Shown: piece after piece, positions 12,508 through 51,830 of the stretch
How the letters are laid out: each line of letters starts with the position of its first letter
Numbering within the stretch: position 1 is the stretch's first letter
Assembly: GCA_947629205.1 (NCBI GenBank)
Contig: CANRCV010000003.1
Coordinates: forward strand, 1,303-65,302
Origin: an uncultured Bacilli bacterium
GTDB lineage: Bacteria > Bacillota_I > Bacilli_A > RF39 > UBA660
Length of the DNA: 64,000 nt
Direction: 5' to 3'
Translations under genes and position numbers: made by a program
The notes under the pieces: generated by a model
The model's database searches: none
What the model was told of the DNA's origin: nothing
Seen by the model: the letters and a program-made list of their open reading frames with translations, nothing else

Positions 12508-14337
12508 ATGCAAGCAATTATGTTAGCAGCTGGAATGGGGAAAAGACTAGGAAAATATACAAAAGATAATACAAAATGTATGTTAGAAATTAATGGCAAA
12601 ACATTAATTGAAAGAGCAATTGAAGCTCTAATTGACTCCGGGGGGGGGGTTACAAAGTTAATAATTGTTACTGGATATAAAGGAGAAAATTTAAAAAAAT
12701 TTTTATTAGAAGAATGTAAAAATGAAAAAATAAAACAACTACCTTTGGAATTTATTGATAATCCAGAATATAATAAAACTAATAATATATATTCTTTGTA
12801 TTTAGCAAAAGAAGCATTAGAAAAAGATGATACAATTCTTTTAGAATCTGATTTAATCTATGATGGAAAACTTATTAAAAAGTTAATAGAATCTCCTGAG
12901 AAAAATTTGGTTTCTGTTGCTAAATATAAACAATGGATGGATGGAACCGTTATTAAAGTTGATGATCAACAAAATGTAATTGAATTTATTGAAAAGAAAA
13001 ATTTTAATTATGAAGAAATAGAAAATTATTATAAAACGGTTAATATTTATAAATTAAGTAAAGAATTTTCCCATCAAGTTTTTATTCCTTTTTTAAAAAG
13101 TTATATTCAAGCCTATGGTAATAATGAGTACTATGAATTAGTATTAAAAATTATTGCCCATTTATCCCGTAGTCAATTAAAAGCATTGGATGTATCAAAC
13201 ATTCTTTGGTATGAGATAGATGATGCACAAGATTATGATATTGCTACTTGTATGTTTTCAAGCGGTAAAGAAAAACTAGAAAATTTTCAAAAACGATATG
13301 GTGGTTACTGGAGATTTGAAAATATATTAGATTATTGCTATTTAGTAAATCCTTATTATCCACCAAAACAATTAATGGAGAAAATAAATTATTTTTCCAA
13401 CAATTTAATTACACAATATCCTTCTGGTCAAAAAATTGAATGTATTAATGCAAGTCGTTTATTTAATGTAGATGAAAATTATTTATGTGTTGGGAATGGA
13501 GCTGCTGAATTAATTAATATTTTAGGAAATATTTTAAAAGGAAAAATGTATGTTCCAAAAACAGCATTTAATGAATATATTCGTTGTTTTAAAAATAATG
13601 AATTTACTTTATTTGATATGGAAAAAAATAATTTTCAATATGATTTACAAGATATTAAGAAAAATATCTCTTTGAATGAGATTATTTGTTTAGTAAATCC
13701 TGATAATCCTTCCGGAACATTTTTATCTTTTGAAGAAATAATTTCTATTTTAGAACAATGTAAAAAAGAAAATAAAATAGTTATTTTTGATGAATCATTT
13801 ATTGATTTTGTTAATCCAAATAAAAGATATACTTTATTACAAAATGAAATTTTAGAAAAATATCAAAATTTAATTGTAATTAAAAGTATTAGTAAATCTT
13901 ATGGCATTCCTGGTTTAAGATTAGGTATTTTGGCAACAAGCAATCTATCATTAATGGAAGAAATAAAAAGAAATATTTCGATATGGAATATTAATTCTTA
14001 TGGAGAATATTTCTTACAAATTGCTAATCTTTATAGCAAAGAATATATAAAATCTTGTGATAAAATTGCTATAGAAAGAGATCGCTTTATGGAAGAGTTA
14101 TCTAAAATTAATGGTGTAATTGTTTATCCATCTGAAGCAAATTATGTTTTGTGTAAATTAAAAAATTATAACTCAACAAAATTAGCCATTCAATTGTTAG
14201 ATCAAAATATTTTTATTAAAGATTTAAGAACAAAAAATGCATTTAATGATAAAGATTACATTCGACTTGCCATTAGAACAAAAGAAGAAAATGATGTTTT
14301 GGTTCGTGAAATCAAAAAATCTTTAAAGGGTGAGTAG
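12508..14337 (+). CDS. bifunctional LicC-like nucleotidyltransferase (N-term) / class I-II PLP-dependent aminotransferase or decarboxylase (HisC/CobD-like, C-term); contains an in-frame G10 tract
   Basis: N-terminal MQAIMLAAGMGKRLG matches the NTP-transferase G-rich loop. The C-terminal half has the PLP-lysine context SKSYGIPGLRLGIL. The tract at 12640-12649 encodes GGG. Confidence 0.7.
   Translation: MQAIMLAAGMGKRLGKYTKDNTKCMLEINGKTLIERAIEALIDSGGGVTKLIIVTGYKGENLKKFLLEECKNEKIKQLPLEFIDNPEYNKTNNIYSLYLAKEALEKDDTILLESDLIYDGKLIKKLIESPEKNLVSVAKYKQWMDGTVIKVDDQQNVIEFIEKKNFNYEEIENYYKTVNIYKLSKEFSHQVFIPFLKSYIQAYGNNEYYELVLKIIAHLSRSQLKALDVSNILWYEIDDAQDYDIATCMFSSGKEKLENFQKRYGGYWRFENILDYCYLVNPYYPPKQLMEKINYFSNNLITQYPSGQKIECINASRLFNVDENYLCVGNGAAELINILGNILKGKMYVPKTAFNEYIRCFKNNEFTLFDMEKNNFQYDLQDIKKNISLNEIICLVNPDNPSGTFLSFEEIISILEQCKKENKIVIFDESFIDFVNPNKRYTLLQNEILEKYQNLIVIKSISKSYGIPGLRLGILATSNLSLMEEIKRNISIWNINSYGEYFLQIANLYSKEYIKSCDKIAIERDRFMEELSKINGVIVYPSEANYVLCKLKNYNSTKLAIQLLDQNIFIKDLRTKNAFNDKDYIRLAIRTKEENDVLVREIKKSLKGE
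12640..12649 (+). repeat. homopolymeric G10 tract (simple sequence repeat) inside the nucleotidyltransferase domain coding region
   Basis: Counted directly: ...gactccGGGGGGGGGGttacaaag, translated DSGGGVTK, in frame. Confidence 0.9.
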
Positions 14338-15952: not shown

Positions 15953-15960
15953 GTGCGAAT

Positions 15961-18293: not shown

Positions 18294-18300
18294 TATAGAA

Positions 18301-18327: not shown

Positions 18328-18378
18328 CATTAGTATATACAATGGGAATTTCGAACAAATAATTCAATAGATTAAATG

Positions 18379-18407: not shown

Positions 18408-18427
18408 TGGTAAAAAGAGGTGAAAAT

Positions 18428-19871: not shown

Positions 19872-19890
19872 TATTGCATCTGCTTGTTGA

Positions 19891-19925
19891 CAAAATGCTA
19901 TATTCAAAAAGAATATAGCATTTTG
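19891..19925. promoter_or_regulatory. perfect 15-bp inverted repeat (caaaatgctatattc-aaaaa-gaatatagcattttg) downstream of the AbiE operon, overlapping a TTGACA box; terminator or operator
   Basis: Read directly. TTGACA at 19887-19892. An extended -10 TGtTATAAT at 19943-19951 lies ahead of the GT2 gene. Confidence 0.5.
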
Positions 19926-19989
19926 CTTCCTTTTCTATTAAGTGTTATAATAGCAAGTAAGAGTAATAAAAAAGATAAGTGGGTGTCAT

Positions 19990-23701: not shown

Positions 23702-23718
23702 AATAATAGGTGATTTCA

Positions 23719-31977: not shown

Positions 31978-33609
31978 ATGAAAAAAAAAATATTAACAAG
32001 AAAAAATCAAAATAATTTTTTTAAATTATGTATAGATAAATTAAAAAAATTATCATTTAAAAATTATTTAAATATTTTTTTACTTACCGTTATTTTAATT
32101 TGTGAAACTTATGTATTTTTTCAATACAAAATGATATTTTTTCCAGATGGTCAACTTTATTATTCTTTATCTAGAATTATAGTTGGTTCAACTTCATTAT
32201 CGCATTGGAGTGCAGTAAGAGGTTTTGGGTTTCCTTTAATTATTGCAATTTGGACTAAATTATTTGGAGATTCTTCTTTTGGATTAATATTAGGTTCTTT
32301 TATCTTCTATTTATTTTTAATACTAGGAATTGGATTTTTAATTCAAAAATTTATAAAAATCAATAAAGTAAAAAATAGAAGTTTATTCTTTTTTCTATAT
32401 TTATTAATAGTTGCTTTTAATCCATTAATCATTGGGTATCAACATACATTATTAACAGAAGCTGTAATGCCAAGTTTTTATTTATTAACTATAATGTTAT
32501 GTTTGAAATGGTATAAAATTAATTATAATGATAATAAAAAAACTTATATAGCAATAAATATTATTTTCGTTATACTTGCTATTTGGATTTGGTTTATAAA
32601 GCAACCTTATTCTCCGGCATTTTATATAGCCCTTTTGTTAACTGCTGTTTTAACAGCTATATATTATAAAAGTTGGAAAATATTTGCTACAAGAATGATA
32701 ACTGTTGTAATGTGTTTTTGTTTTATGATGTTATCGATTTTCATATGGGATAATACTTTAACTAAAAATAGCGCTGCATCTGCAAGTGCACTTGATGTAG
32801 CATATATGAGTAATAATATCTATGGTGGATTAAGTGTATATTATTATTATGTAAAGCCGGAAAATTTTTGCGATATTGATTATATACAAAGTTTGGACCT
32901 TTCATTAAAAGAAAAGGAAAAAATTAATTCTATTTATGAACAAGATAAAGAAAATTGGTGTTCACATATTGTAATGTATGAACTTAAAGATCGATATAAA
33001 CAACATATTGCAACTGAAGTTATTATTTCTAATGATGATAAAATTGATATGGCTGAAAATACAATCTTTTTATTGAAAAATATATGGAGACATCCTACAT
33101 TAGTTTTAAAATCCTATTTTTATAATTACTTAGCAATAGCTGATATCCAAGAACGTGATTTAAATAGAGGAGTTGTTTCATCTTTAAATTATGAACCATA
33201 TGTATGGGGAGAAAATTTAAGTAATGGAATGATGGCATTAACAATAGATAATAATACGGTAGTTTTCAATAATAAATCTTTGGCTAAATTTAATGAAAAA
33301 ACTACTCCTTCTAATATTGATCTTATGAATATTTTATTAATTCATAATAATCTTTGTTATTATTTATATAAGCTTTTAATTTTCTTAGCATTGCCTATTT
33401 TTATGTATAGTTTTATTAAATTTATTAAAAATAAAAATATAAATTATTTCTTAATATCTATTTGTAGTTTAACAACTTTTGTAGATGCATTTTTCCATGT
33501 ATTTACTGGGCATGTAATAGATAGATATGCATATCCAGTATATCCATTAATGATTTTGGTATTAATTCTATTGTTTATGGAAAAAAATAATGAAGATACA
33601 AAAAAATAA
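31978..33609 (+). CDS. polytopic membrane protein (about 14 TM), possible polymerase or GT-C-type enzyme
   Basis: 543-aa hydrophobic ORF with no recognisable catalytic motif. Confidence 0.45.
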   Translation: MKKKILTRKNQNNFFKLCIDKLKKLSFKNYLNIFLLTVILICETYVFFQYKMIFFPDGQLYYSLSRIIVGSTSLSHWSAVRGFGFPLIIAIWTKLFGDSSFGLILGSFIFYLFLILGIGFLIQKFIKINKVKNRSLFFFLYLLIVAFNPLIIGYQHTLLTEAVMPSFYLLTIMLCLKWYKINYNDNKKTYIAINIIFVILAIWIWFIKQPYSPAFYIALLLTAVLTAIYYKSWKIFATRMITVVMCFCFMMLSIFIWDNTLTKNSAASASALDVAYMSNNIYGGLSVYYYYVKPENFCDIDYIQSLDLSLKEKEKINSIYEQDKENWCSHIVMYELKDRYKQHIATEVIISNDDKIDMAENTIFLLKNIWRHPTLVLKSYFYNYLAIADIQERDLNRGVVSSLNYEPYVWGENLSNGMMALTIDNNTVVFNNKSLAKFNEKTTPSNIDLMNILLIHNNLCYYLYKLLIFLALPIFMYSFIKFIKNKNINYFLISICSLTTFVDAFFHVFTGHVIDRYAYPVYPLMILVLILLFMEKNNEDTKK

Positions 33610-34601: not shown

Positions 34602-35862
34602 CTAATAATTCATGTAAATAAATTTATTTGCTGTAAAAACTCCAAATAAAATAATAAAAACGATGTATATAAAAATTCTAATACAGTATTTTTGTTTTGT
34701 ATAATCTTCTTTATTTTTTATTTCAATAATGAATTGAAATAAAATTAAAATGAATAATGTAATAGCCATAGCAATACTAGCATTATCTCCAGTAAAAGGA
34801 ATTACACAATTTACTAAGCTATTATAATTGATTACAAAATTTGATAACATATGTTTTAAATAATTAATTCCAGCACTAAAGCTCTCTAAACGAAAAAATA
34901 TCCATCCAATAGTTATTTCTATAAAAGTTAAGATTTTGTAAAAAAATGATTTTAATTTATTATGTGATGGGGGGGGGGGTTAAATTATTTAAAATTCCAT
35001 GATACAATCCCCAAAATATGTATCCACTACCATTTCCATGCCAAAATCCACTAACTAAAAAAGTAATTATAGAATTTAACCATTTTCTAAATTTTCCTTT
35101 TCGATTTCCTCCTAAAGGAATGTAAATATAATCTTTTAGCCAACTAGATAAAGAAATGTGCCAGCGTCCCCAAAATTCTTTAATGCTTTTAGAAAAATAA
35201 GGACGATTAAAATTTCTTTCAACCTCTATACCAAGAAGATTAGATATACCTATAGACATATTAGAATATCCAGAAAAATCACTATATATTTGAATGCTAT
35301 AAAGTATAGCAGCAATAAATAAAGCTAAACCTGTATAAGATGTATAATTTTGAAAAACTGTATTGACATATACAGCAGTACGATTTGCAATTACAAATTT
35401 TAAAAATAAACCAGCAATAATTAATTGTATACCTTTTAACCATTTATCTTTTTTAAAAGTAAAAGTGTTATCTAATTGTTCAATAATTGTTTTTCCTCTA
35501 GAAATTGGTCCGGAAATAATTTCAGGAAAATAAGTCACATAAATAAAATAATTTATAAAATTTTGTTTAAATGAAATTTTATGTTTATAGTTATCTATTA
35601 AATAACTTATAATTTTAAAGGAATAAAAAGATAAACCTAAGGGCAATATTTTAATAAATGATTTATAAAATATCCAAATGAAAACCGTAAAAATAGTTCC
35701 TAATAGAGTAAAAATTTTATTATTCTTTTTAGTGCATAAAAAAGTTATGCATACTAAAAGAATTAAAATTGGCAAAGATTTAAAATCAATTAAGCAGTAA
35801 AAAAGTAAATTGATTAATAAAAGAATCATTTTACGCATTTGTATGTTATTTGGTTTTGTCAT
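34602..35862 (-). CDS. MBOAT-family membrane-bound O-acyltransferase (DltB/AlgI/PatA-like), reading frame interrupted at a C11 tract (phase-OFF as sequenced)
   Basis: Conserved-His region WGRWHISLSSWLKDYIYIPLGG...VSGFWHG. ORF 34960-35862 ends ...LTPPPIT* just after the tract. Hand translation of the -1 frame is stop-free from the tract into ORF 34602-34850. Confidence 0.7.
34969..34979 (-). repeat. homopolymeric C11 tract (G11 on + strand) inside the MBOAT gene
   Basis: tgtgatGGGGGGGGGGGttaaatt counted directly. Confidence 0.9.
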
Positions 35863-39882: not shown

Positions 39883-40896
39883 ATGAAACAAGAAGAATCA
39901 AATAAAATAACGAATCTTAATTTTATATTAACAATACTAATTGTTTTTATGCACTCAAGCTGCTTAAGTTATAGTAGTACAATTCAAAATGAATTTGTTG
40001 GAATAATATATAATTTCATATATGGTATTCTAAATATAGCAGTTCCTACTTTTTTTGCATTATCAACAATTTTATTTTTTCGCAATTTTGATATGTCAAA
40101 ATATAGATTTAAGATAAAAAGTAGAATTAAATCATTAGTGTTGCCTTATTTATTTTGGAGTACTGTTTTTCTTGTTTATTACATAATAATTACTCATATT
40201 CCTTGGGTTAGTAGTATGGATACTACAATGGAACCAATAAAATATAATTTATTTTCTATACTATATTATATTTTATTTGCAAAATATGCGGGTGCCCTTT
40301 GGTATATTAGAGAACTTTTTATATTATTTTTAATTTCACCAATAATATATAGTCTGGTAATTAAATTAAAAAGTAAAAATTGGATTTTAATTCTTTTTGT
40401 TATTACAATGAATTTAATTTTTAAGCCATCCTATTTTACTTTTATTTATTGGCTCCCATTATACTATATGTTTGCTTATCTAGTGATTAGCAAGAAAAAA
40501 ATAAATATAAATTTAAATGTTCTTAAATTTCTATTAATTTCGGGGGGGGGGCTATTCTTAATAATACTTAATGAATATTCAGGATTTTATATGCACTTTA
40601 TATTTAGATTATATATACCATTCTTTATATTATATTTAGTTTCAAAAAGTAAATTATTAGAAAAGAATCCTAAATCTTTTATGAAAAATAATTTTATTAT
40701 ATATTGTACTCATTTTCAATTATCGGTTGTAATTAAAAGATTACTTATGATTATTTTTGGAACTAATGAATGGTTACTTTTAGTATATCAGTTGGTAACG
40801 TGTTTTATGGTAGTGTGTATAATTAATATATTTATTAAATTAGGAAAAAAGATATGCCCGAAATTTATAATGTTTATATCTGGTGGTAGAGTTTAA
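39883..40896 (+). CDS. acyltransferase family 3 membrane O-acyltransferase; contains an in-frame G10 tract
   Basis: 10-TM protein with N-terminal TILIVFMHSS pattern. The tract at 40542-40551 encodes ISGGGLF. Confidence 0.65.
   Translation: MKQEESNKITNLNFILTILIVFMHSSCLSYSSTIQNEFVGIIYNFIYGILNIAVPTFFALSTILFFRNFDMSKYRFKIKSRIKSLVLPYLFWSTVFLVYYIIITHIPWVSSMDTTMEPIKYNLFSILYYILFAKYAGALWYIRELFILFLISPIIYSLVIKLKSKNWILILFVITMNLIFKPSYFTFIYWLPLYYMFAYLVISKKKININLNVLKFLLISGGGLFLIILNEYSGFYMHFIFRLYIPFFILYLVSKSKLLEKNPKSFMKNNFIIYCTHFQLSVVIKRLLMIIFGTNEWLLLVYQLVTCFMVVCIINIFIKLGKKICPKFIMFISGGRV
40542..40551 (+). repeat. homopolymeric G10 tract in the acyltransferase-3 gene
   Basis: atttcGGGGGGGGGGctattc counted directly. 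In frame. Confidence 0.9.
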
Positions 40897-40920
40897 AAAT
40901 ATAGAGAAAGAAGTGAAAAA

Positions 40921-41940
40921 ATGAAAAAAGAAATTCCTATTATGTTTTGTTTTGATAAAAATTATGTGATTCCTGCAGCTGCTTGTTTTATATCTATAAT
41001 GGAACATGCAAATTCTAAAAATAACTATCATTTTTATGTTTTGCACTCTGATATATCAAAAGATCAACAAGATAAATTACACTTGGATATGAGAAAATTT
41101 TCAAATTGTAAATTGGAATTTATAGATATGAATAACAAATTTAAAACTGAATTTAAAAATGTTGAGAATAAAGCCCATTTTTCGAAAGAAGTATTATATA
41201 AATTAATTTGTGGTTCTATTTTTCCGAATATTAATAAACTAATTATTACAGATGTAGATGTAATCTTTTTAGATGATATTGCTAAAATTTATGATGAATT
41301 ATCAGAAAATGATTCATATTATTTTGCTGGTATTCCCCCTATTAAAACCAAACCATATATTTATAAAGATAAACCTAGTTATAAAAAATTTGATGAGACT
41401 GAATTGGCAATATTAGAAAATGGTATAGGTGGAGGTTTTTTATTAGCTAATTTAAAAAAAATTCGTGATGATAATTTTGAAGAAAAATTAGTAAATTACC
41501 TTATACAAAATGCAAATAAACTAATACAAATGGAACAAGATGTTATAAATGTCGTTGGGGGGGGGGTACATGGTATAAAACATTTACCATATTATTACAT
41601 GGTATGTAGTTATCATTATAATGATTTTAATGATTCAGAGGCATATAAAAAATTAATTTATCATGACGAAAAAGATGTTAAATATGCTTTAGAACATCCA
41701 GTACAGTTACATTATGCTACTTGTGATAAACCTTGGACTTATGTTGATTGTGCTAAAAGTGAAATATGGTTTCAGTATATCGTTAAATCAGTTTTTTTAA
41801 GAGATTTTTTAGAAGAATTACCAAGTAAAATAAAAACCGTAAATGACTTTTTACAAACCATGAGAAAGAAGCATAAAAAGTTATATAATTTTTTATTAAA
41901 AATATATCATTTAATTAAAAAGATACTTTTTATTAAATAA
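40921..41940 (+). CDS. GT8-family glycosyltransferase (LgtC/RfaJ-like retaining hexosyltransferase); contains an in-frame G10 tract
   Basis: IPIMFCFDKNYVIPAAACFISI and the DxD region LIITDVDVIFLDD. The tract at 41557-41566 encodes VVGGGVHG. Confidence 0.7.
   Translation: MKKEIPIMFCFDKNYVIPAAACFISIMEHANSKNNYHFYVLHSDISKDQQDKLHLDMRKFSNCKLEFIDMNNKFKTEFKNVENKAHFSKEVLYKLICGSIFPNINKLIITDVDVIFLDDIAKIYDELSENDSYYFAGIPPIKTKPYIYKDKPSYKKFDETELAILENGIGGGFLLANLKKIRDDNFEEKLVNYLIQNANKLIQMEQDVINVVGGGVHGIKHLPYYYMVCSYHYNDFNDSEAYKKLIYHDEKDVKYALEHPVQLHYATCDKPWTYVDCAKSEIWFQYIVKSVFLRDFLEELPSKIKTVNDFLQTMRKKHKKLYNFLLKIYHLIKKILFIK
41557..41566 (+). repeat. homopolymeric G10 tract in the GT8 gene
   Basis: gtcgttGGGGGGGGGGtacatgg counted directly. 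Confidence 0.9.
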
Positions 41941-41969
41941 AAAATAAAATACAAGAAAGGATTTACAGT

Positions 41970-43484
41970 ATGAAAAGTAGTCGATTTAAAAAAACAATTT
42001 TTAATAGTATTTCAAATGTTTTAGTACTTTTCAGTATTACTGTCTTTTCTTTTGTTTTAAGAACATATTTTATTAAAATATTAGGTGAACAATGTTTAGG
42101 TGTAGATGGGTTGTTTACAAATATTTTATCTTTGCTTTCCTTATCAGAATTGGGAATTTCTGCTGCTATAAGTTATAGTTTATATAAACCATTAGCTGAA
42201 AAAAATAAAGATAAAATAAATAAAATCATGTCTTTTTATAAAAAAGTTTATCATTTTATTGCTTTGTTTATTTTCTTTTTTAGTATTGTATTAATTCCAT
42301 TTTTACACCTAATTGTAAAGGGCTATGATGTTAATTATAATATTTATCTTATTTATAGCTTGTATGTTATTGATATTGTAATGTCTTATCTTACATCTTA
42401 TAAAATTATTTTAATTGAGGCAGATCAAAAATCTTATAAATTAACAGGAATAAAAATTATGTTTAACTTTTTGACATATGGTTTGCAATTATTGTTTTTA
42501 TTGCTAACAAGAAATTTGATTTGGTATCTGGTTATACAAGTTATAGTAAGACAAATAGAAAGATTAATTACTAATATTTATATTGGAAAGAATTATCAAG
42601 ATATAGACTTTAATTATAAAGAAAAATTAGATAAAGAAGATAGTGATAATATAAAAGAAAATGTAAAGGGTATTATTTTTCATAAAGTTGGTAATTATGC
42701 TGTTAATAGTACAGATAATATTTTAATTTCAAGCATTGTCAATATTTCAACAACAGGTATTTATTCAAATTATTTATCTATTATTTCCATTATTCGTAAT
42801 TTTATTGGAAGTATTGTATCCTCAGCTACATCTAGTTATGGTAATTTAAATGTAAATGATACTCCTCAAACTAAATTAAATATTTTTAATATTATGGATT
42901 TTACGTGTTTTTTTGTAACAGGATTATTTACTTTAGGTATTTATTTTCTAATTAATACATTTATTCATTTATGGGTTGGAACAAATTATATATTAGATAA
43001 TTTTTGTGTAATAATTATAACTATTAATTTTTATTTAAATTGTATGTTGTTACCAGTTGATACTGTAAAAAGCTCAACCGGAAAATATTATCAAGATCGA
43101 TATATACCAATAATTCAAGCGATAATTAATTTGGCGTTATCTATTATATTAGGAAAAATTATGGGACTAGTTGGTATCTTACTTGCAACTACTATTTGCT
43201 ACTTATGCACAGTAAGTTGGTCTAAAGCTTATATAATATATAAATATATTTTTCAAAAAAATGTTTTTACTTATTTAAAAAGGCAACTAAAAAATGGAAT
43301 AATGTTATTATGTACTGCTTTTGTTATCCAATATATTTTTAAATACATTCATATTAATGGTTTGTTTTTATCTTTCGTGATTAAAGGATGTATTTTAACT
43401 CTTACTTTTAGTATTATTTTTCTATTATTTTATAGAAATTCCAATGAATTTAGTTTCTTTAAAAATTTATTTTTGAAAAAATAA
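41970..43484 (+). CDS. Wzx-type polysaccharide (lipid-linked oligosaccharide) flippase, PST/MOP family
   Basis: 504 aa with about 14 TM segments. N-terminal pattern (FNSISNVLVLFSITVFSFVLRTYFIKILGEQCLGVDGLF) is typical of Wzx/polysaccharide biosynthesis proteins. Confidence 0.75.
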   Translation: MKSSRFKKTIFNSISNVLVLFSITVFSFVLRTYFIKILGEQCLGVDGLFTNILSLLSLSELGISAAISYSLYKPLAEKNKDKINKIMSFYKKVYHFIALFIFFFSIVLIPFLHLIVKGYDVNYNIYLIYSLYVIDIVMSYLTSYKIILIEADQKSYKLTGIKIMFNFLTYGLQLLFLLLTRNLIWYLVIQVIVRQIERLITNIYIGKNYQDIDFNYKEKLDKEDSDNIKENVKGIIFHKVGNYAVNSTDNILISSIVNISTTGIYSNYLSIISIIRNFIGSIVSSATSSYGNLNVNDTPQTKLNIFNIMDFTCFFVTGLFTLGIYFLINTFIHLWVGTNYILDNFCVIIITINFYLNCMLLPVDTVKSSTGKYYQDRYIPIIQAIINLALSIILGKIMGLVGILLATTICYLCTVSWSKAYIIYKYIFQKNVFTYLKRQLKNGIMLLCTAFVIQYIFKYIHINGLFLSFVIKGCILTLTFSIIFLLFYRNSNEFSFFKNLFLKK

Positions 43485-43508
43485 ATTTTAGATAAGGAGG
43501 ATTAAATA

Positions 43509-44618
43509 ATGAAAGAAAAAACAAATAGAAATTCAAATGTTGAAATATTAAGAATAATTAGTATGCTATTAATTATTGCTCATCATTATTCATACTATGG
43601 TTTTAAAGATTTGGGTATAGTTTATACTTTTAACAAGTATTTAGTAAGTTTTATTGGTTTTGGTGGAAAATTGGGAACTCTTATTTTTGTACTTATTTCT
43701 GGTTATTATATGTGCGATTCTAAATTTTCAATTAAAAAATTAATTAAATTAATTGGAGAAGTTTGGTTTTATTTAACTGGTATTGGTCTTTTATTGCTTT
43801 TTGTTTTTCCAACAAATATTCCTATAGATTTTCATACAATACTTAAAATTTTTATTCCTTTATTATATCAACAAAATTGGTTTATTACTGACTACATATT
43901 ATTAATGATAATATCTCCTTTATTGAATATAATTATTCAACAAATTAATAAAGAATTTTATAAAAAGATTTTGTTTGTTGGAGTTCTAATATGTTCAATA
44001 ATTCCAAGTCTTTTTTATGCAGATTTAAATATAAATAGTATATTATGGTTTATAGTATTGTATTTTATTTCTGGATATTTGAAAAAGCATATTCAATTGA
44101 ATCAAAATAGTAAAAAAAATTTTTTATTATCATTTCTATTTTTAATAATACTATTTACCCTTAAAGTAGGAAATGTATTTTTAGGAAATTATTTACATAT
44201 GCCTATATTAATTAATAATAGTATATATTTTAATTCTTTAATTAGTCCATTGACGTTGCTTGTAGGTTTAGAGTTATTAATTGCGTTCTTAAAATTAAAA
44301 CCTTTTTCTAACAAAATTGTAAATGAAATTGCTAGTACAACATTAGGAATTTATCTTATTCATGATCATTTTTTAATGAGAAATTTCTTATGGGGGGGGG
44401 GTATATTTAATAATAAAATATACTTTAATTCCAATTTATTAATTATCCATGCTATGATTTGCATAAGTATAGTATATATTATTTGTGCCATTATTGATTT
44501 AATACGTCAAAAAACAATAGAAAAAATTTATTTGAAAATAGTAGATAAATTTATATTATTTTATCAAAAGAAAAATTTAAATAAATTTTGGAGTTATGTT
44601 TATAAAATTATTAATTAA
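43509..44618 (+). CDS. acyltransferase family 3 membrane O-acyltransferase, paralog A; contains an in-frame G10 tract
   Basis: ILRIISMLLIIAHHY...ASTTLGIYLIHDHF...LWGGGIF. Close paralog of 47885-49006. Confidence 0.65.
   Translation: MKEKTNRNSNVEILRIISMLLIIAHHYSYYGFKDLGIVYTFNKYLVSFIGFGGKLGTLIFVLISGYYMCDSKFSIKKLIKLIGEVWFYLTGIGLLLLFVFPTNIPIDFHTILKIFIPLLYQQNWFITDYILLMIISPLLNIIIQQINKEFYKKILFVGVLICSIIPSLFYADLNINSILWFIVLYFISGYLKKHIQLNQNSKKNFLLSFLFLIILFTLKVGNVFLGNYLHMPILINNSIYFNSLISPLTLLVGLELLIAFLKLKPFSNKIVNEIASTTLGIYLIHDHFLMRNFLWGGGIFNNKIYFNSNLLIIHAMICISIVYIICAIIDLIRQKTIEKIYLKIVDKFILFYQKKNLNKFWSYVYKIIN
44392..44401 (+). repeat. homopolymeric G10 tract in acyltransferase-3 paralog A
   Basis: cttatGGGGGGGGGGtatattt counted directly, translated LWGGGI. 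Confidence 0.9.
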
Positions 44619-44646
44619 TTAAAAAGTAAATAGAGTAGGTGAAAGT

Positions 44647-45585
44647 ATGCTTAAAAAAATATTTAATAAAATATTCCAAATGATAAAAGAGTATTTTATT
44701 AATTTAAAGTATTTTGGTTTTAAAATAGCAAATTTAAATTTTTTATGTGAATTTTCAATGATTCCATTTTTACAAAATAGAATGGATTCATTACATCAAA
44801 AAAGGTATAAATATATAAATCATTATTTAGTGACTAATTTTGATTATTTGATTGATAAATATCGTCATAAAACTATGATAACTCAAAAAGGTGAAAAAAT
44901 CATTTGGTGTTTTTGGTATCAAGGCTTTGATAGTGCTCCTTTATTAGTTCAAAAATGTATAGAAAGTATTAAAAAAAATGCTGGTGAATATCAAGTTATT
45001 TTATTAACAAAAGAAAATTATCAATCTTATATAAAAATACCTCAATTTATTTTAGATAAATTAGAAAATAAAACTATTACTCTTACACATTTTTCGGATA
45101 TTTTAAGAGCGGGATTATTAAAGGAACATGGCGGTATTTGGGTTGATGCTACAATGTATTTTACTAAAAATATATTTAAAGAGTTTGACAACAAAATATT
45201 TAATAGTACTATTTTAGATGAAGAAAGCAACTTACATTGTACAGGCTTTTTTATGGGAGGTTGTCCTAATAATTTATTTGATTTTTTGTATGAGTTTTTT
45301 TTAGAATATCACAAAAAAAATAAATATCTTATTAATTATTTCTTAATTGATTATATTTTAAATATTGCTTATGATAATTTAGAAAATTGTAGAAAAATTA
45401 TGGATTTAGAAACGATTGAAAATAAAAACATGTATCTTTTAACATCAAAATTTTCTTTAGAATACAATAAATTGGAATATAAAAATATAATAAATAGCGC
45501 TCCATATTTTAAATTAAATTATAAACATCATTATAATAAAAACATAAATGGAAAAATAACGAATTATGGTTATTTTATGAAATAA
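44647..45585 (+). CDS. DXD-motif sugar-binding glycosyltransferase (GT32/capsular polysaccharide synthesis protein family)
   Basis: FSDILRAGLLKEHGGIWVDATMYF matches the Gly_transf_sug / Caps_synth consensus. Confidence 0.6.
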   Translation: MLKKIFNKIFQMIKEYFINLKYFGFKIANLNFLCEFSMIPFLQNRMDSLHQKRYKYINHYLVTNFDYLIDKYRHKTMITQKGEKIIWCFWYQGFDSAPLLVQKCIESIKKNAGEYQVILLTKENYQSYIKIPQFILDKLENKTITLTHFSDILRAGLLKEHGGIWVDATMYFTKNIFKEFDNKIFNSTILDEESNLHCTGFFMGGCPNNLFDFLYEFFLEYHKKNKYLINYFLIDYILNIAYDNLENCRKIMDLETIENKNMYLLTSKFSLEYNKLEYKNIINSAPYFKLNYKHHYNKNINGKITNYGYFMK

Positions 45586-45697
45586 AATAAAAAAAGGAAT
45601 GCCAAACAAATAGACTTTAATTCGTTTTTTTGATACAATGTTTAAAAGAATAAAGATGAAATGTTAAAATGTATTAGGAAGGAATAAGTGGATTAAA

Positions 45698-46819
45698 ATG
45701 AAAAAAAATAGCAAATTATTATTGTCCATTATTTGTCCTATTTATAATGGTGAAAAAGTTGTTGGAAATTTAATTGAATCTTTAGAAAATCAAGAATACA
45801 AAGACTATGAATTGATATTGATAAATGATGGATCAGAAGATAATACATGGGATGTCATTCAAAATTATGCCAAACAATATAGTAACATTGTTTTAATAAA
45901 TAAAAAAAATACGGGCGTTGGAGATACTAGAAACGAAGGACTAAAAATTGCCAAAGGAAAATATATTGCATTTGCTGATGCAGATGATACTTATACAATA
46001 GATTTTTTTGAAAAAATAATTCCAGAAATTAAAAAGGAAGATTTTGAAATGCTTGTTTTTAATGCAAATGTAATGAATCACGAAAAGTATTTATATGCTG
46101 AAATTTCTGAAAAATATTCTAGTGGTTCTTTTATTGAAAAACATGGAGTAGAAAAATATTTACAAGGTGAATTTTGTTATAGAATTGGAAATGTGCCTTG
46201 GAATAAAATATACTTATCTAAAATTATAAAAGAAAATAATATTTGGTTTGAAAAAGACAAAAAAACAGGAGAAGATTTGATATTTAATATTTGCTATGTA
46301 TCTAAAATTGAAAAATATAAATATTTAAATATTAAACTTTACAATTATATGCTAAATATGATTGTAAATAAAAATAGAAATTATTTTGAAAACTGTTTAG
46401 AAGAAAATTTAAAATATTATGAATTATTAGAAAAAATATGTAAAACTGAAAATATAAAAACGCAATATTTATCTTTATTTTTTCTAAGGAGATTTCCAGG
46501 TATTGTACAAAATGAAGTTAATAATAAAGATTACTATCAAGGTAAACTAAATATAAAAAAATACTTATGCAATGAAAAAATGAAAAAAGTTTTTACTAAT
46601 ATAAATTTACGAAATATAGATTTAAAATTATTTATTTGTTATCTATTTTATAAATTAAAAATTTATAATTTTTACTATTGTATAAAATGGAAAATAGCTC
46701 ATAAAATTGATCGGGGGGGGGGCTATAGACTAGATTTTAATTTCCTTAATACTGAAATAAATAATATTCAATATTTTTTTAAAAAGACTTTAATACCTAT
46801 ATACTTTTTGAAAGAATAA
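45698..46819 (+). CDS. GT2-family glycosyltransferase, paralog 1; contains an in-frame G10 tract near the C-terminus
   Basis: LSIICPIYNGEKVV...NDGSEDNT GT2 signature. The tract at 46713-46722 encodes DRGGGYRL. Confidence 0.7.
   Translation: MKKNSKLLLSIICPIYNGEKVVGNLIESLENQEYKDYELILINDGSEDNTWDVIQNYAKQYSNIVLINKKNTGVGDTRNEGLKIAKGKYIAFADADDTYTIDFFEKIIPEIKKEDFEMLVFNANVMNHEKYLYAEISEKYSSGSFIEKHGVEKYLQGEFCYRIGNVPWNKIYLSKIIKENNIWFEKDKKTGEDLIFNICYVSKIEKYKYLNIKLYNYMLNMIVNKNRNYFENCLEENLKYYELLEKICKTENIKTQYLSLFFLRRFPGIVQNEVNNKDYYQGKLNIKKYLCNEKMKKVFTNINLRNIDLKLFICYLFYKLKIYNFYYCIKWKIAHKIDRGGGYRLDFNFLNTEINNIQYFFKKTLIPIYFLKE
46713..46722 (+). repeat. homopolymeric G10 tract in GT2 paralog 1
   Basis: attgatcGGGGGGGGGGctataga counted directly. 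Confidence 0.9.
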
Positions 46820-46855
46820 GAAAAAGTATAAAAAGTAAAAGAAAGGATTTTTAAT

Positions 46856-47881
46856 ATGAAAAAAAATAGTGAAATATTATTATCCATTATTTGCCCAATT
46901 TATAATGGTGAAAAGGTAGTTGGGAATTTAATAGAGTCTTTAGAAAATCAAGAATACAAAGACTATGAATTAGTATTAGTAAATGATGGCTCAGAAGATA
47001 ATACATTAAAAGTATTGAATGAATATTCTAAAAAATATCCTAATATTATAGTTGTTGATAAACCACATACTGGATTATGTGATACTCGAAATGTAGGTGT
47101 TGAGCATTCACATGGAAAATATCTTACCATAGGAGATTGTGATGATTATTATAGTGCAGATTTTTTTGAAAAAATAATTCCAATAATCCAAGAAGGAGGA
47201 TTTGAATTATTAATCTTTAATGCGTATGTAATGAATTATGATAAATTTATGCACTATTTAATTCCAGATAAATATAAAAGTGGTTATTTTGAAGAAAAAA
47301 ATGGTGTTTATAAGTATTTAAGAGGGCAATTTGGACATCAAATTGCTAATAATACATGGAATAAAATATATCCTAGAGAAATTATAGATAAATATAAATT
47401 TAAATATTCAGTTGAAAATCATGGGGAAGATTTGTTATATCATATTCTATATACATCTAAAATAACCAAATATAGATATTTTAATGAAAAACTGTATTAT
47501 TATCAGTTAAATATGAATCCATTAACAACAAGCAGTTATCGTGAAAATGAAGTTAAGGATGTGCTTGACTATTATGAACCAATTAAAAAAATTTGTGTGA
47601 ATAGTCAACTTGAAAAGTGGGAGGAATATTTAAGTTTATTTTTCTTAAGAAGATTACCAATTATCGTTTTAAATGAAACAAATTGTAACGATTATAACAA
47701 GGGAAAAGAAAACATAGAATCATTTTTAAACAATAAAATAATTTTATCTTTGTTTAAAAAAATTAAGTTTAAGTATTTTGATTTTAAATTATTTATCAGT
47801 TTTTTATTATATAAATTAAAATTATACAAATTAGTCTATATTGTATTATGGAAGAAAAGACATAAAAAGAGGAATCATTAA
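46856..47881 (+). CDS. GT2-family glycosyltransferase, paralog 2 (5' ~150 nt nearly identical to paralog 1, 3' part divergent, no G tract)
   Basis: Same N-terminal 50 aa as 45698 with only conservative changes. The protein ends before the region that carries the tract in paralog 1. Confidence 0.7.
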   Translation: MKKNSEILLSIICPIYNGEKVVGNLIESLENQEYKDYELVLVNDGSEDNTLKVLNEYSKKYPNIIVVDKPHTGLCDTRNVGVEHSHGKYLTIGDCDDYYSADFFEKIIPIIQEGGFELLIFNAYVMNYDKFMHYLIPDKYKSGYFEEKNGVYKYLRGQFGHQIANNTWNKIYPREIIDKYKFKYSVENHGEDLLYHILYTSKITKYRYFNEKLYYYQLNMNPLTTSSYRENEVKDVLDYYEPIKKICVNSQLEKWEEYLSLFFLRRLPIIVLNETNCNDYNKGKENIESFLNNKIILSLFKKIKFKYFDFKLFISFLLYKLKLYKLVYIVLWKKRHKKRNH

Positions 47882-47884
47882 AAA

Positions 47885-49006
47885 ATGAGTACTACTGAAA
47901 AAAAGCGTAATTCAAATTTAGAATTATTAAGAATTATTAGTATAATTTTAATTATTGCTCACCACTATGCTGGGCATGGTTTTGTTATTGAAAATATGCC
48001 ATATTCGTTCAATCAATATTTAATTGGTTTTTTAGTATTAGGTGGGAAATTAGGAGTCGTTTGTTTTATTTTAATTTCTGGATTTTTTATGTGTGAAACA
48101 AAATTTTCTATTAAAAAATTAATTAAATTAATAGGTGAGGCATGGTTTTATTTACTTGTAATAGGAATATTATTTAATACAATTTTAACCCCAACTATTC
48201 CTATTGATTTTACAGTAATATTAAAATCAACCATTCCAATTATATATGATCAAAATTGGTTTATAACAGATTATATAATGCTAATGATAATTTCACCAGT
48301 ATTAAATATTATCATTAAAAATATTAGCAAAGAATCATATCAAAAAATGCTTATCATAGGATTTATTTTATATTCAGTTTTACCTATATTCATTTTTGCA
48401 AGTCTTAATAATACAAGTTTTGTTGGGTTTATTTATTTATATTTTGTAGCAGGGTATATGAGAAAATTTTTACAAGTTCAAAATTCTCCTAAAAGATATT
48501 TTTTAAAAGCTTCGATAATTAATTTTATGGTTATATTATCAAGTATTTTGTTTATATTTTTAGGTCATAAATTCAATTTAACTATTTTTATAGTTAATAA
48601 TGCCTATTTTAGTTCTTTAAATAGTCCATTTACTTTGTTAATAGGAATTGAACTATTTATATTCTTCTTAAAATTAAAACCCTTTACAAGTAAAATTATT
48701 AATAAAATTGCTAGTACAACTTTAGGAATTTATTTAATTCATGATAATTTTTTACTACGTCCATACTTGTGGGGGGGGGGTATATTAAATAATTTAAATT
48801 ATGTTAATTCTCCATTTTTATTTTTACATGCTATTATTTCAATAATAGGAGTATTTATTGTATGTGTTATTATTGATCTAATTAGACAAGAAACAGTAGA
48901 AAAGGTTTATTTGAAAATTGTAGATAAATTAATTTTATTTTATCAAAAAAAGAATTTAAATATATATAAAAAAATTTGGTATTATATTAGTAAAATAATA
49001 GATTAA
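47885..49006 (+). CDS. acyltransferase family 3 membrane O-acyltransferase, paralog B; contains an in-frame G10 tract
   Basis: Collinear with 43509-44618, including the LWGGGIL tract context and the ...IDLIRQETVEKVYLKIVDKLILFYQKKNLN tail. Confidence 0.65.
   Translation: MSTTEKKRNSNLELLRIISIILIIAHHYAGHGFVIENMPYSFNQYLIGFLVLGGKLGVVCFILISGFFMCETKFSIKKLIKLIGEAWFYLLVIGILFNTILTPTIPIDFTVILKSTIPIIYDQNWFITDYIMLMIISPVLNIIIKNISKESYQKMLIIGFILYSVLPIFIFASLNNTSFVGFIYLYFVAGYMRKFLQVQNSPKRYFLKASIINFMVILSSILFIFLGHKFNLTIFIVNNAYFSSLNSPFTLLIGIELFIFFLKLKPFTSKIINKIASTTLGIYLIHDNFLLRPYLWGGGILNNLNYVNSPFLFLHAIISIIGVFIVCVIIDLIRQETVEKVYLKIVDKLILFYQKKNLNIYKKIWYYISKIID
48771..48780 (+). repeat. homopolymeric G10 tract in acyltransferase-3 paralog B
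   Basis: acttgtGGGGGGGGGGtatatta counted directly. Confidence 0.9.
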
Positions 49007-50853: not shown

Positions 50854-51830
50854 ATGAAAGAAATTGGTGGATTTTTAGAATTAGATCTTTATAAAGATAG
50901 AAATAAAAAATTTAAAAATAATTTATTATTATTTAATAGTTGTCGTAATGCATTGGCTTATATAATTAAAGTAAAGAATATAAAAAAAATGGCTGTGCCC
51001 TATTATTTGTGTGATTCAATTGTAAATTTATTACAAAAAAATAATATAGATATAACTTTCTATCATATTAAAATGGATTTTACTCCTGAGAATAATATTA
51101 AATTAAGAACTGGTGAATATCTTTTTGTAGTAAATTACTATGGTCAATTAACGAAAAAAATGCAAGGCAAATTAAAATCACAATATAAAAATATAATTTT
51201 AGATAATACGCAAGCTTTTTTTGATAAGCCTTTAAAAAATGTTGATACTCTTTATTCTTTTCGTAAATTTTTTGGAGTCCCCGACGGGGGGGGGTATCTA
51301 CGAATGATGCAAGTTACTATAATCAATTAAAGGTTGATAAATCTAATAATCGTATGTCAGCTTTACTTGGCAGATTTGAAGAAAATGCAGCAGCTTTTTA
51401 TACAGTTTTTCAAAATTTAGAAGAAAATTTTGAGAATATGCCTATGTTAAAAATGTCAAAGTTAACTAATAATCTTTTAAATGCAATTGATTTTTGTAAA
51501 GTAAGAACTATTAGAACTAAAAATTTTAACTTTTTATATAAAAATTTAAAGAATAAAAATATTTTGAAATTAAAAAAAGTTAAAGGTGCTTATATGTACC
51601 CATTATATTTAGAAGATGCTGTAGAATTAAAAAAATTTTTATTAGAAAATAAAATATATATTCCTATTTTATGGCCTAATGTTTTAAATATAGTTTCAAA
51701 AGATTCTATTGAATATAAATATGTGCATAATATTTTACCTTTACCTTGTGATCAAAGATATAGTAAAACAGATATGAAATACATTTGTGATAAAATAATT
51801 GAATTTGAAAAAAGGACAAGAAAGAAGTGA
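50854..51830 (+). CDS. DegT-like (fold-type I PLP enzyme-like) sugar-modifying protein, split into two ORFs at a G9 tract (phase-OFF as sequenced)
   Basis: ORFs 50854-51330 and 51354-51830. NSCRNALAYII...VPYYLCDS resembles the DegT N-terminal block. Hand translation shows the +1 frame after the tract runs stop-free into the second ORF. Confidence 0.4.
51286..51294 (+). repeat. homopolymeric G9 tract separating the two halves of the DegT-like gene
   Basis: ccccgacGGGGGGGGGtatcta counted directly. Confidence 0.9.

What the first reader, a model, noticed from the sequence alone, without database searches (positions are those of the whole stretch)
39883..49006. Duplicated acyltransferase-3 / GT2 cassette in which each acyltransferase paralog carries a G10 tract at the same WGGGI position
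The block reads AT3(43509) - GT32-like - GT2a(45698) - GT2b(46856) - AT3'(47885). The two AT3 genes are collinear paralogs with nearly identical sequence around the tract (ASTTLGIYLIHD..F...LWGGGI) and in the C-terminal tail. A third AT3 (39883) has a G10 in a different context (ISGGGLF). GT2a also carries a G10 close to its 3' end. The tract has been kept, or regenerated, in both paralogs. That pattern argues for selection for switchability rather than chance. It would let several alternative O-acyl decorations be expressed independently.
Basis: seen in the sequence. Interest (0 to 1): 0.65.

Follow-up and report, generated by a model that had tools for sequence, protein, structure and literature searches.

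The report
Poly-G switches in wall-sugar acyltransferase genes
An uncultured, very AT-rich Gram-positive gut bacterium carries eight runs of about ten G's inside genes that decorate its cell-wall polysaccharide, including two sister acyltransferases with the run at the same codon, which is the classic signature of random on/off (phase-variable) surface switching best known from Campylobacter.

Summary
AT3 genes 43509-44618 and 47885-49006 are 57% identical paralogs with a G10 run at the same WGGGI codons. A third, unrelated AT3 (39883) and GT2a (45698) also carry G10.

The runs are far from chance. The window has no G run of 6-8 and eight of 9-11. GGG makes up only 6.8% of Gly codons elsewhere.

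All eight genes are full-length at exactly G10. The two that are not G10 (G9, G11) are broken.

The four genes with the WGGGI tract form one clade, and 26 tract-less homologues have a loop one residue shorter. So the tract is inherited and kept across about 45% protein divergence, not on a recently converted block.

Off-state alleles exist elsewhere: G9 in an orthologue, and five truncated AT3#1 homologues ending just after GGG.

Best explanation: slipped-strand poly-G contingency switches giving combinatorial O-acyl and glycosyl decoration. The mechanism is known; the host, a low-GC Bacillota, is unusual. Switching itself is inferred, because no read-level data were available.

The parts
39883..40896 (+). 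AT3 #1, a membrane O-acyltransferase of 337 aa; full-length at G10
   Evidence: PF01757 at 66.8 bits against a cutoff of 31. G9 or G11 give 225-229 aa. Five diverged homologues are truncated just after GGG at this position.
40542..40551 (+). G10 tract in AT3 #1 (codes S-GGG-L)
   Evidence: Near-identical contigs read G11 in L085 (with a 53-bp deletion downstream) and G10 in L084, which is 97.4% identical.
40921..41940 (+).
   Evidence: PF01501 at 85.6 bits. G9 or G11 give 218-229 aa.
41557..41566 (+). G10 tract in GT8 (codes V-GGG-V)
   Evidence: Contig L091 has no mismatches over 1,931 nt except that it is 4 nt shorter at this tract, which splits the gene into P0248 and P0250.
41970..43484 (+). 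Multi-pass membrane protein of 504 aa, probably a Wzx-type flippase; no tract
   Evidence: No Pfam hit here. Its 32%-identical homologue in L095 carries PF01943 Polysacc_synt, a weak hit.
43509..44618 (+). AT3 #2, 369 aa, paralog of AT3 #3; full-length at G10
   Evidence: PF01757 at 66 bits. 57% identical to AT3 #3. ±1 in tract length gives 300-310 aa.
44392..44401 (+). G10 tract in AT3 #2 (TGG GGG GGG GGT = W-G-G-G)
44647..45585 (+). Caps_synth / DXD (GT32-like) glycosyltransferase; no tract
   Evidence: PF05704 at 237 bits and PF04488.
45698..46819 (+). GT2a, 373 aa at G10; the tract affects only the C-terminal tail
   Evidence: PF00535. G9 or G11 give 343-344 aa, about the length of paralog GT2b at 341 aa. 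G10 reads about 30 extra residues into the spacer before GT2b.
46713..46722 (+). G10 tract near the 3' end of GT2a, 134 nt upstream of the GT2b start
   Evidence: It is also G10 in the second assembly, L001.
46856..47881 (+). GT2b, 341 aa, paralog of GT2a; no tract
   Evidence: PF00535. 54% identical to GT2a.
47885..49006 (+). AT3 #3, 373 aa, paralog of AT3 #2; full-length at G10
   Evidence: PF01757 at 79.4 bits. The AF2 model has pLDDT 91.2. The tract residues G297-299 lie between short helix 291-298 and the last long helix 312-356, so ±1 removes the last transmembrane helix and the C-terminal helices.
48771..48780 (+). G10 tract in AT3 #3, at the codon homologous to the AT3 #2 tract
   Evidence: Orthologues read G9 in L002 (off) and G10 in L003.
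12508..14337 (+). Nucleotidyltransferase plus CobD-like PLP enzyme fusion with a G10 tract at 12640-12649 (outside the finding; same system)
   Evidence: ±1 gives 50-57 aa.
34602..35862 (-). DltB/AlgI-like MBOAT O-acyltransferase, broken by C11 (G11 on the + strand, 34969-34979); C10 restores 419 aa
50854..51830 (+). Gene of unknown family split by the G9 tract at 51286-51294; G10 restores 325 aa
   Evidence: The same broken C-terminus appears in another contig's protein, P0261.

Best explanation
The interval is the core of a strain-variable 'decoration' module inside a large cell-wall polysaccharide locus. The locus is Rgp/teichoic-acid-like and has an ABC transporter, a Wzx-like protein, LicD and TarI/J-like genes. 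The host is an uncultured, about 22-25% GC, Gram-positive-type (Bacillota) gut bacterium.

Seven modification genes in the window each contain a 9-11 nt G run that acts as a simple-sequence contingency switch:
- three AT3 O-acyltransferases,
- one MBOAT O-acyltransferase,
- a GT8,
- a nucleotidyltransferase/decarboxylase fusion,
- one gene of unknown family.

Proposed mechanism: slipped-strand mispairing at replication changes the run by ±1. This shifts the frame and truncates the enzyme. For AT3 #2 and #3 the truncation removes the last transmembrane helix and the C-terminal helices. A later slip restores the frame. Each gene flips independently, so one clone yields a mixture of cells with different O-acyl and glycosyl patterns (up to 2^7 combinations). 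The likely benefit is escape from phages and host antibody.

The tract shared by AT3 #2 and #3 was present in their common ancestor and has been retained. The GT2a tract only changes the C-terminal tail and is probably not an on/off switch of catalysis.

Shown:
- The tracts are real and non-random.
- Every gene is in frame at G10.
- ±1 truncates the product.
- The tract is conserved across diverged homologues.
- Broken alleles exist here and elsewhere.

Inferred:
- High-frequency reversible switching.
- Loss of activity in truncated forms.
- The selective agent.
For: (1) Non-randomness. There are 24 G8 hits against 0.15 expected. There is no G or C run of 6-8 but eight of 9-11. GGG is 61 of 900 Gly codons outside the tracts. 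A/T runs of 10 or more are depleted, 1 against 23.4 expected.

(2) Frame logic. All eight genes are full-length only at G10. The G9 and G11 tracts coincide with the two broken genes.

(3) Retention. AT3 #2, AT3 #3, L002 and L003 form one clade with W-GGG-[IL]. The 26 nearest homologues have W-xx-[IL]. The paralogs are 57% identical, with diverged codons right next to the identical tract and no significant conversion signal.

(4) Length variants. Orthologue L002 is G9 and its called protein P0003 ends ...WGGVY. L085 has G11 in AT3 #1. L091 differs from the window only at the GT8 tract.

(5) AT3 #1 subfamily. Among 150 cluster representatives, five (35-75% identical to AT3 #1) are truncated 3-20 residues after GGG at the homologous site. 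One is full-length with GGG there, and 136 are full-length without it.

(6) The same habit in other low-GC gut MAG contigs. L004, the nearest GTDB AT3 hit, has four G9-10 tracts, two of them in AT3-like genes. L095, a backbone relative, has a C10 in a GT10 gene.

(7) Independent assemblers (ENA SPAdes-style NODE contigs and Logan contigs) both give the tract.

(8) Close functional precedent. The C. jejuni capsule locus has six poly-G genes, including the paralogous MeOPN transferases cj1421 and cj1422, and sugar transferases with tracts at the extreme C-terminus (PMC5808241).
Against: - No read-level data, so heterogeneity within a population is not shown.
- The cross-sample length variants come from roughly 1-2x coverage contigs, where homopolymer miscalls are plausible. 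The L091 change (-4 nt, including a T) is not a clean slip.
- The mismatch-repair status of the organism is unknown.
- Several relatives with the same conserved backbone have no tracts in 17-21 kb (L092, L093, L099-L107). The habit is therefore patchy.
- The AT3 #2/#3 tract lies at about 80% of the gene, so truncated proteins keep most helices and the invariant His27. Loss of function is assumed.
- The GT2a tract cannot act as a simple on/off switch.
Confidence: 0.8

Rival explanations
1. The G runs are real but functionally static. They would simply encode tolerated Gly3 (or Pro3) loops, and the organism repairs slippage well enough that they do not act as switches. The broken genes would be ordinary pseudogenes.
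For: No direct measurement of switching. The tracts sit in loops; the AF2 model puts G297-299 between helices. Some relatives lack tracts entirely.
Against: - Gly3 elsewhere in the window is coded GGA/GGT (for example GGAGGAGGA and GGTGGAGGT) and never as a G run.
- The bimodal run-length spectrum has an empty 6-8 class.
- Both pseudogene-like breaks in the window lie exactly at tracts.
- Five diverged AT3 #1 homologues are truncated exactly after GGG.
- The tract is retained through about 45% protein divergence while adjacent codons changed.
Confidence: 0.1
2. The two AT3 paralogs share the tract because of a recent gene conversion between them, not because of long-term retention. The tract could still be a switch.
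For: Codons 262-300 show a somewhat higher identical-codon fraction among identical residues (23/28 against 114/174 elsewhere). The C-terminal 40 codons are 85% identical at nucleotide level.
Against: - The excess is not significant (Fisher p=0.086).
- The five codons immediately 5' of the tract differ at synonymous and non-synonymous sites: ATG/CTA, AGA/CGT, AAT/CCA, TTC/TAC, TTA/TTG.
- The high identity upstream coincides with a motif that is invariant in the whole family.
- Two further orthologues from other samples have the tract at the same codon.
Confidence: 0.06
3. The G runs are sequencing or assembly artefacts, for example two-colour Illumina poly-G signal.
For: The source is metagenomic. 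Several supporting contigs have about 2x coverage. Six of eight tracts are exactly G10.
Against: - The tracts are internal and flanked by continuous coding sequence. Six of eight preserve the frame, with homologous protein sequence on both sides.
- They sit at homologous codons in paralogs and orthologues from different samples and two assembly pipelines.
- The same sites are marked by GGG plus truncation in unrelated public assemblies.
Confidence: 0.02
4. The runs act at the RNA or translation level (transcriptional slippage or programmed frameshifting), producing two protein isoforms from each gene rather than heritable DNA switching.
For: Homopolymers can cause polymerase slippage. The GT2a tract yields alternative C-termini of 343, 344 or 373 aa.
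Against: - DNA-level length differences are seen: G9, G10 and G11 in this window, and G9 in L002.
- The alternative frames end within 3-20 codons with no conserved second product.
- No stimulatory structure was looked for or seen.
Confidence: 0.02

Closest known systems
Campylobacter jejuni poly-G contingency genes of the capsule locus (for example the paralogous MeOPN transferases cj1421 and cj1422; PMC5808241)
   Same: - Intragenic G9-G11 runs are clustered in genes that add side groups to a surface polysaccharide.
- The genome is AT-rich.
- Several independent switches sit in one locus.
- Paralogous transferases each have their own tract.
- Some sugar transferases have tracts at the extreme C-terminus that only trim the tail, as GT2a does here.
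- On/off is set by a ±1 G.
   Different: - The host here has Gram-positive-type envelope genes (LytR-CpsA-Psr + PASTA, dockerin, TagF-like), not a Campylobacterota envelope.
- The gene families differ (AT3, MBOAT and GT8 rather than MeOPN transferases and methyltransferases).
- All eight tracts here share one in-frame length (G10), which is not the case in C. jejuni as far as I recall.
- Switching is measured in C. jejuni and is not measured here.
Haemophilus influenzae oafA, a phase-variable AT3 O-acetyltransferase of LOS (reviewed in PMC9558356)
   Same: It belongs to the same protein family (AT3). A simple-sequence repeat inside the gene gives on/off O-acetylation of a surface glycan.
   Different: The repeat is a tetranucleotide, not a homopolymer. 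It is a single gene, not three. It is Gram-negative LOS.
Neisseria pglI, an AT3-SGNH O-acetyltransferase of the pilin glycan (PMC9558356). That it carries a poly-G tract is from my own memory and was not checked here.
   Same: An AT3-family O-acetyltransferase reported to be switched by a homopolymeric G run.
   Different: It has a fused SGNH domain. The target is a protein glycan. It is a single copy.
Streptococcus pneumoniae wciZ (serotype 15B/15C), with TA repeats in a capsule O-acetyltransferase gene (PMC5266551, citing van Selm 2003)
   Same: It is a Gram-positive surface-polysaccharide O-acetyltransferase whose activity depends on the copy number of a short repeat inside the gene.
   Different: The repeat is a dinucleotide. 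It is one gene. The host is a cultured pathogen. Whether wciZ is AT3 family is from my memory only.
Helicobacter pylori futA/futB, paralogous fucosyltransferases that each carry a poly-C tract (own knowledge, not checked here)
   Same: Paralogs each retain a homopolymer at the equivalent site and switch independently. A relative of this window (L095) has a C10 in a GT10 fucosyltransferase.
   Different: The enzyme family and the phylum differ.

Membership tests
Simple-sequence-repeat (homopolymer) contingency / phase-variable genes | A repeat tract long enough to be hypermutable (G/C run of about 8 or more) inside the ORF or promoter | tested here: met
   Eight G runs of 9-11 nt lie in coding sequence.
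Simple-sequence-repeat (homopolymer) contingency / phase-variable genes | Tracts over-represented relative to composition, with a gap between ordinary short runs and long runs | tested here: met
   Shuffles expect 0.15 G8 hits against 24 found. The spectrum has no runs of 6-8. GGG is 6.8% of Gly codons outside the tracts.
Simple-sequence-repeat (homopolymer) contingency / phase-variable genes | A ±1 repeat-unit change shifts the frame and truncates the product | tested here: met
   In-silico G8-G12 series for all eight tracts. Seven give early truncation. GT2a only changes its last roughly 30 residues.
Simple-sequence-repeat (homopolymer) contingency / phase-variable genes | Tract-length polymorphism between closely related cells or strains while flanks stay identical | tested here: inconclusive
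   L085 has G11 against G10. L091 is 4 nt shorter with 0 mismatches in 1.9 kb. L002 has G9 in an orthologue. Five truncated AT3 #1 homologues end after GGG. However, the same-strain contigs are only about 1-2x coverage and no reads were available.
Simple-sequence-repeat (homopolymer) contingency / phase-variable genes | Measured high-frequency, reversible on/off switching of the phenotype | not testable with these tools
   This needs a culture or deep read data.
Acyltransferase-3 (PF01757) membrane O-acyltransferases | Significant match to the AT3 profile over the whole domain | tested here: met
   66.8, 66.0 and 79.4 bits against a cutoff of 31, covering profile positions about 2-324 of 326.
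Acyltransferase-3 (PF01757) membrane O-acyltransferases | Polytopic all-helical membrane fold with a conserved His in the first helix | tested here: met
   The AF2 model has pLDDT 91.2 and pTM 0.90 and is all-helical. H27 is invariant in 34 homologues and lies in helix 10-32. The best solved-structure match is the transmembrane acetyltransferase HGSNAT, but only weakly (E 0.2, prob 0.8).
Acyltransferase-3 (PF01757) membrane O-acyltransferases | Transfers an acyl group to an extracytoplasmic glycan | not testable with these tools
   Inferred from the family and from the position inside a polysaccharide locus.
Tandem duplication of one AT3-GT2 cassette | Two copies of the same gene order in the same orientation | tested here: not met
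   The order is AT3, GT32-like, GT2a, then GT2b, AT3', all on the + strand. The pairs are paralogous (57% and 54%), but the layout is mirrored and has an extra gene. In L002 the orthologous AT3 is preceded by a different AT3-like gene.

The most novel reading that the evidence does not exclude
An uncultured lineage of very low-GC gut Bacillota may have independently evolved a Campylobacter-style, multi-gene poly-G contingency system for its cell-wall polysaccharide. The system shows unusually strict rules:
- every gene is in frame at exactly G10;
- the G's are always on the leading (+) strand, even for an opposite-strand gene;
- the tracts are never flanked by A;
- A/T runs are avoided.

These rules would point to a lineage-specific slippage or repair regime, for example loss or alteration of mismatch repair. 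It would be the first dense homopolymer-switch repertoire described in Firmicutes, a phylum reported to avoid simple repeats (PMC3315296).
Probability: 0.3. Interest if true: 0.65.

Novelty: new member of a known kind. Interest (0 to 1): 0.5.

Why it matters
Phase variation by homopolymer slippage is textbook biology for a few Gram-negative mucosal pathogens. It is hardly documented for Gram-positive gut commensals, whose known switches are mostly invertible promoters.

If confirmed, many uncultured gut Bacillota may diversify their wall-polysaccharide acylation stochastically. That would affect phage host range, antibody (IgA) recognition and strain tracking in metagenomes. It would also mean that 'pseudogenes' split at G runs in MAGs are mis-annotated switches.

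The idea is directly testable from existing read sets. The mechanism itself, and phase-variable AT3 genes, are already known, so the advance is one of host range and scale, not of principle.

Tried and rejected
- Gene conversion as the reason both paralogs have the tract. Sliding identity and identical-codon counts show no significant block.
- A pattern scan of JGI metagenomes for the AT3 #2/#3 tract context gave 0 hits. I did not use the optional second scan.
- The GTDB genome scan with the AT3 alignment did not find the window's own genome. Cluster look-ups and the TsaD homologue search gave no organism names.
- The promoter/terminator scan of 39.5-52 kb gave 136 promoter-like sites against 131 expected. 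It is uninformative in this AT-rich DNA, so I make no claim that the GT2a tract acts on GT2b transcription.
- NCBIfam gave no named family for the three AT3s, the Wzx-like protein or the repaired 50854 gene.
- The PDB fold search gave only a weak HGSNAT match.
- Literature searches for poly-G contingency loci in Firmicutes/Bacillota, and for the rabbit MAG study, found nothing specific. Absence from this library is not proof of novelty.
- The A10 run after the ATG of 31978 was considered as a ninth switch. Relatives start with similar Lys-rich A runs (A6-A8), so it is probably an ordinary MKKK start.
- No +3 (GGGG) variants were seen in any of the tract-bearing genes.

Full report
**What is there**

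The window is very AT-rich, 21-32% GC in 2-kb bins, with positive GC skew throughout. Almost all of its genes lie on the + strand.

The gene content is that of a Gram-positive-type cell-envelope locus:
- a LytR-CpsA-Psr protein with a PASTA domain;
- dockerin, SH3 and cadherin-like surface proteins;
- a GT4 initiating transferase;
- a YidC-TagF-like fusion;
- an ABC-2 exporter with DUF1972 and GT2 enzymes (Rgp-like backbone);
- LicD, IspD/TarI-like and epimerase genes;
- many GT2 genes.

The finding's interval reads: AT3 #1 (39883-40896), GT8 (40921-41940), a 504-aa membrane protein that is probably a Wzx flippase (41970-43484), AT3 #2 (43509-44618), a Caps_synth/DXD GT32-like enzyme (44647-45585), GT2a (45698-46819), GT2b (46856-47881) and AT3 #3 (47885-49006).

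**Checking the observation**

G10 runs lie at 40542, 44392, 46713 and 48771, exactly as reported. Outside the interval are G10 at 12640, G11 at 34969 and G9 at 51286.

AT3 #2 and AT3 #3 are collinear and 57% identical, with the run at the aligned codons TGG GGG GGG GGT. GT2a and GT2b are 54% identical. AT3 #1 shares only the family with the other two.

Chance is excluded:
- Dinucleotide shuffles expect 0.15 G8 matches; 24 are found.
- The G-run spectrum falls 6006, 1316, 134, 30, 4 for lengths 1-5. It is empty for 6-8, then shows eight runs of 9-11. The longest C run is 5.
- GGG is 61 of 900 Gly codons outside the tracts. Other Gly-Gly-Gly tripeptides are coded GGA/GGT.
- A/T runs of 10 are strongly avoided, 1 found against 23.4 expected.

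**Frame logic**

I rebuilt each gene with G8 to G12. Every one of the eight genes is full-length only at G10 (or 7 or 13). The six G10 tracts are in intact genes.

The other two tracts each break a gene:
- The G9 tract splits a 325-aa gene into 50854-51330 and 51354-51830.
- The G11 tract, which reads C11 in a minus-strand gene, cuts a DltB/AlgI-like MBOAT at 300 aa. C10 gives 419 aa.

For seven genes, a ±1 change gives early truncation.

GT2a is the exception. Its tract lies where paralog GT2b ends. G9 or G11 give 343-344 aa, close to GT2b's 341 aa. G10 reads about 30 extra residues into the spacer before GT2b. The same situation is described for two C. jejuni sugar transferases with tracts at the extreme C-terminus (PMC5808241).

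**Is the shared tract kept, regenerated or converted?**

The top homologues of AT3 #3 include the window's own paralog and a 299-aa protein, P0003, that ends ...LWGGVY. Its contig L002, from another sample, has G9 at the same codon, with the homologous reading frame continuing downstream. That is an off-state orthologue. A Logan contig from a further run, L003, has G10 at the same codon.

In a neighbour-joining tree, the four tract-bearing genes form one clade. All 26 nearest tract-less homologues read W-xx-[IL]-x-[KN], one residue shorter. The tract is therefore a shared derived character of a clade whose members are only 51-59% identical (L002 and L003 are 85%).

The paralogs show no significant conversion block:
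- The identical-codon fraction among identical residues is 23/28 around the tract against 114/174 elsewhere (p=0.086).
- The five codons immediately upstream of the tract differ at synonymous and non-synonymous positions.

It carries no information about the tract.

An AF2 model of AT3 #3 (pLDDT 91.2) places G297-299 between a short helix and the last long helix. A frameshift there deletes the final transmembrane helix and the C-terminal helices.

**Evidence that tract length really varies**

- The window itself holds two off-length tracts.
- Contigs from other samples that are 97-100% identical to the window show G11 (L085, with an extra 53-bp deletion) and G10 (L084) at the AT3 #1 tract.
- L091 matches 1.9 kb of the window with no mismatches. 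Its only difference is a 4-nt-shorter GT8 tract that splits the gene.

These contigs are only about 1-2x coverage, so homopolymer miscalls cannot be excluded.

Stronger evidence comes from an exhaustive profile-free search with AT3 #1. Among the 150 best cluster representatives:
- five proteins (35-75% identical to AT3 #1) stop 3-20 residues after a GGG at the homologous position;
- one is full-length with GGG there;
- 136 are full-length without it.

So this tract site recurs in diverged relatives and is repeatedly caught out of frame.

**Distribution of the habit**

The window's genome is not among GTDB representatives, and no source names it. Its closest TsaD and backbone relatives are MAGs with CANR/CANQ accessions. 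The nearest AT3 hits carry 'Lapin' (rabbit) isolate names, so a rabbit-gut origin is likely but is inferred.

Relatives share the conserved left flank and the Rgp-like backbone but replace the region 33.6-56.4 kb. That region holds seven of the eight tracts.

Poly-G is patchy among other low-GC gut contigs:
- L004, the nearest GTDB AT3 hit, has four tracts: two in other AT3-like genes, one in a GT2 and one 37 nt upstream of an AT3 start.
- L095, a backbone relative, has one tract, in a GT10 gene.
- The backbone relatives L092, L093 and L099-L107 have none.
- Five of the 80 AT3 homologues fetched from GTDB genomes of other gut taxa also carry in-frame G8-9/C9 runs, at other positions.

**Mechanism and comparison with known systems**

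The best-supported reading is slipped-strand, homopolymer-based phase variation of polysaccharide-modifying enzymes. Each gene would be an independent switch, giving combinatorial O-acyl and glycosyl patterns.

This matches the C. jejuni capsule locus in detail. That locus has six poly-G genes, paralogous transferases with their own tracts, C-terminal tracts and phage-driven selection (PMC5808241). Phase-variable AT3 genes are also known, such as H. influenzae oafA (PMC9558356), as is a repeat-controlled Gram-positive capsule O-acetyltransferase, wciZ (PMC5266551).

What is unusual is the host. Firmicutes were reported to avoid simple repeats consistently (PMC3315296), and I found no paper describing such a repertoire in gut Bacillota. 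I therefore file it as a new member of a known kind.

**Unexplained regularities**

- The in-frame length is uniformly G10.
- All G's are on the + strand, including for the minus-strand MBOAT.
- None of the 16 flanking bases is A, although G3-G5 runs are flanked by A in about 40-60% of cases.

**Limits**

No reads, no culture and no whole genome were available. Switching rate, repair status and phenotype are therefore inferred. Rival explanations (static Gly3 loops, recent conversion, artefact, RNA-level slippage) are each contradicted by at least two independent results and together get about 0.2.

Noticed in passing
window 12640-12649, 34969-34979, 40542-40551, 41557-41566, 44392-44401, 46713-46722, 48771-48780, 51286-51294: All eight genes are in frame at exactly G10. 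If the in-frame class were random among 9, 10 and 11, this would have a probability of about (1/3)^7. No explanation was tested. One idea is that the mutational equilibrium length is about 10, and selection keeps the modal length 'on'.
   Followed up: partly
same eight tracts: All tracts read G on the + strand, which is the strand with positive GC skew. This includes the tract in the minus-strand MBOAT gene, which codes PPP. None of the 16 flanking bases is A, whereas G3-G5 runs are flanked by A in about 40-60% of cases.
   Followed up: partly
window 33600-56400: This roughly 23-kb block, holding seven of the eight tracts, is a replaceable decoration module. Relative L093 goes from the homologue of 31978-33609, through one PMT_2 gene, directly to homologues of 56491-60135.
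   Followed up: partly
window 12000-20000: This roughly 8-kb stretch is absent from relative L086, which joins the neighbouring genes directly. The stretch holds an S26 peptidase, the poly-G nucleotidyltransferase/CobD-like fusion, a sulfatase-like protein, a YidC-TagF-like fusion (15961-18024) and an AbiEii toxin (19011-19871).
   Followed up: no
window 21051-22361 and 23710-25041: Two paralogous AAA_14/DUF4143 ATPase genes bracket the DUF1972 glycosyltransferase inside the polysaccharide backbone operon.
   Followed up: no
L004 9961-9970: In the nearest GTDB hit, a G10 run sits 37 nt upstream of the start codon of the AT3 homologue, in a 0.9-kb stretch without ORFs. It could be a promoter/leader switch or the remnant of a decayed gene.
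   Followed up: no
L095 15794-15803: A relative's GT10 (FucT_N) fucosyltransferase on the opposite strand carries C10, which reads G10 on the locus + strand. This recalls the poly-C tracts of H. pylori futA/futB.
   Followed up: no
L006, L033, L037, L056, L068 (AT3 homologues): AT3 homologues in Bacteroides, Lachnospiraceae, Fructobacillus, Treponema and Monoglobus genomes carry in-frame G8-9 or C9 runs at other positions. L068 has SGGG in the same loop, 14 residues further on. This suggests that AT3 genes acquire such runs repeatedly.
   Followed up: partly
L002 10-18: The gene upstream of the orthologous AT3 in L002 is the C-terminus of another AT3-like protein and has its own G9 run (VWGG...).
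   Followed up: no
window 31981-31990: This is the only A/T run of 10 or more in the window (23 expected). It lies directly after the ATG of a 543-aa membrane protein. Relatives start with A6-A8 runs, so it is probably an ordinary Lys-rich start rather than a switch.
   Followed up: yes
L085 271-300 vs window 40573-40625: A contig from another sample, otherwise 99-100% identical to the window, lacks 53 bp just downstream of the AT3 #1 tract in addition to having G11.
   Followed up: no
window 44647-44780 (protein P0258): A 90%-cluster variant of the GT32-like protein differs in a short N-terminal stretch (YFKRLLKVKKDNFL against YFGFKIANLNFL). This looks like a local double frameshift.
   Followed up: no
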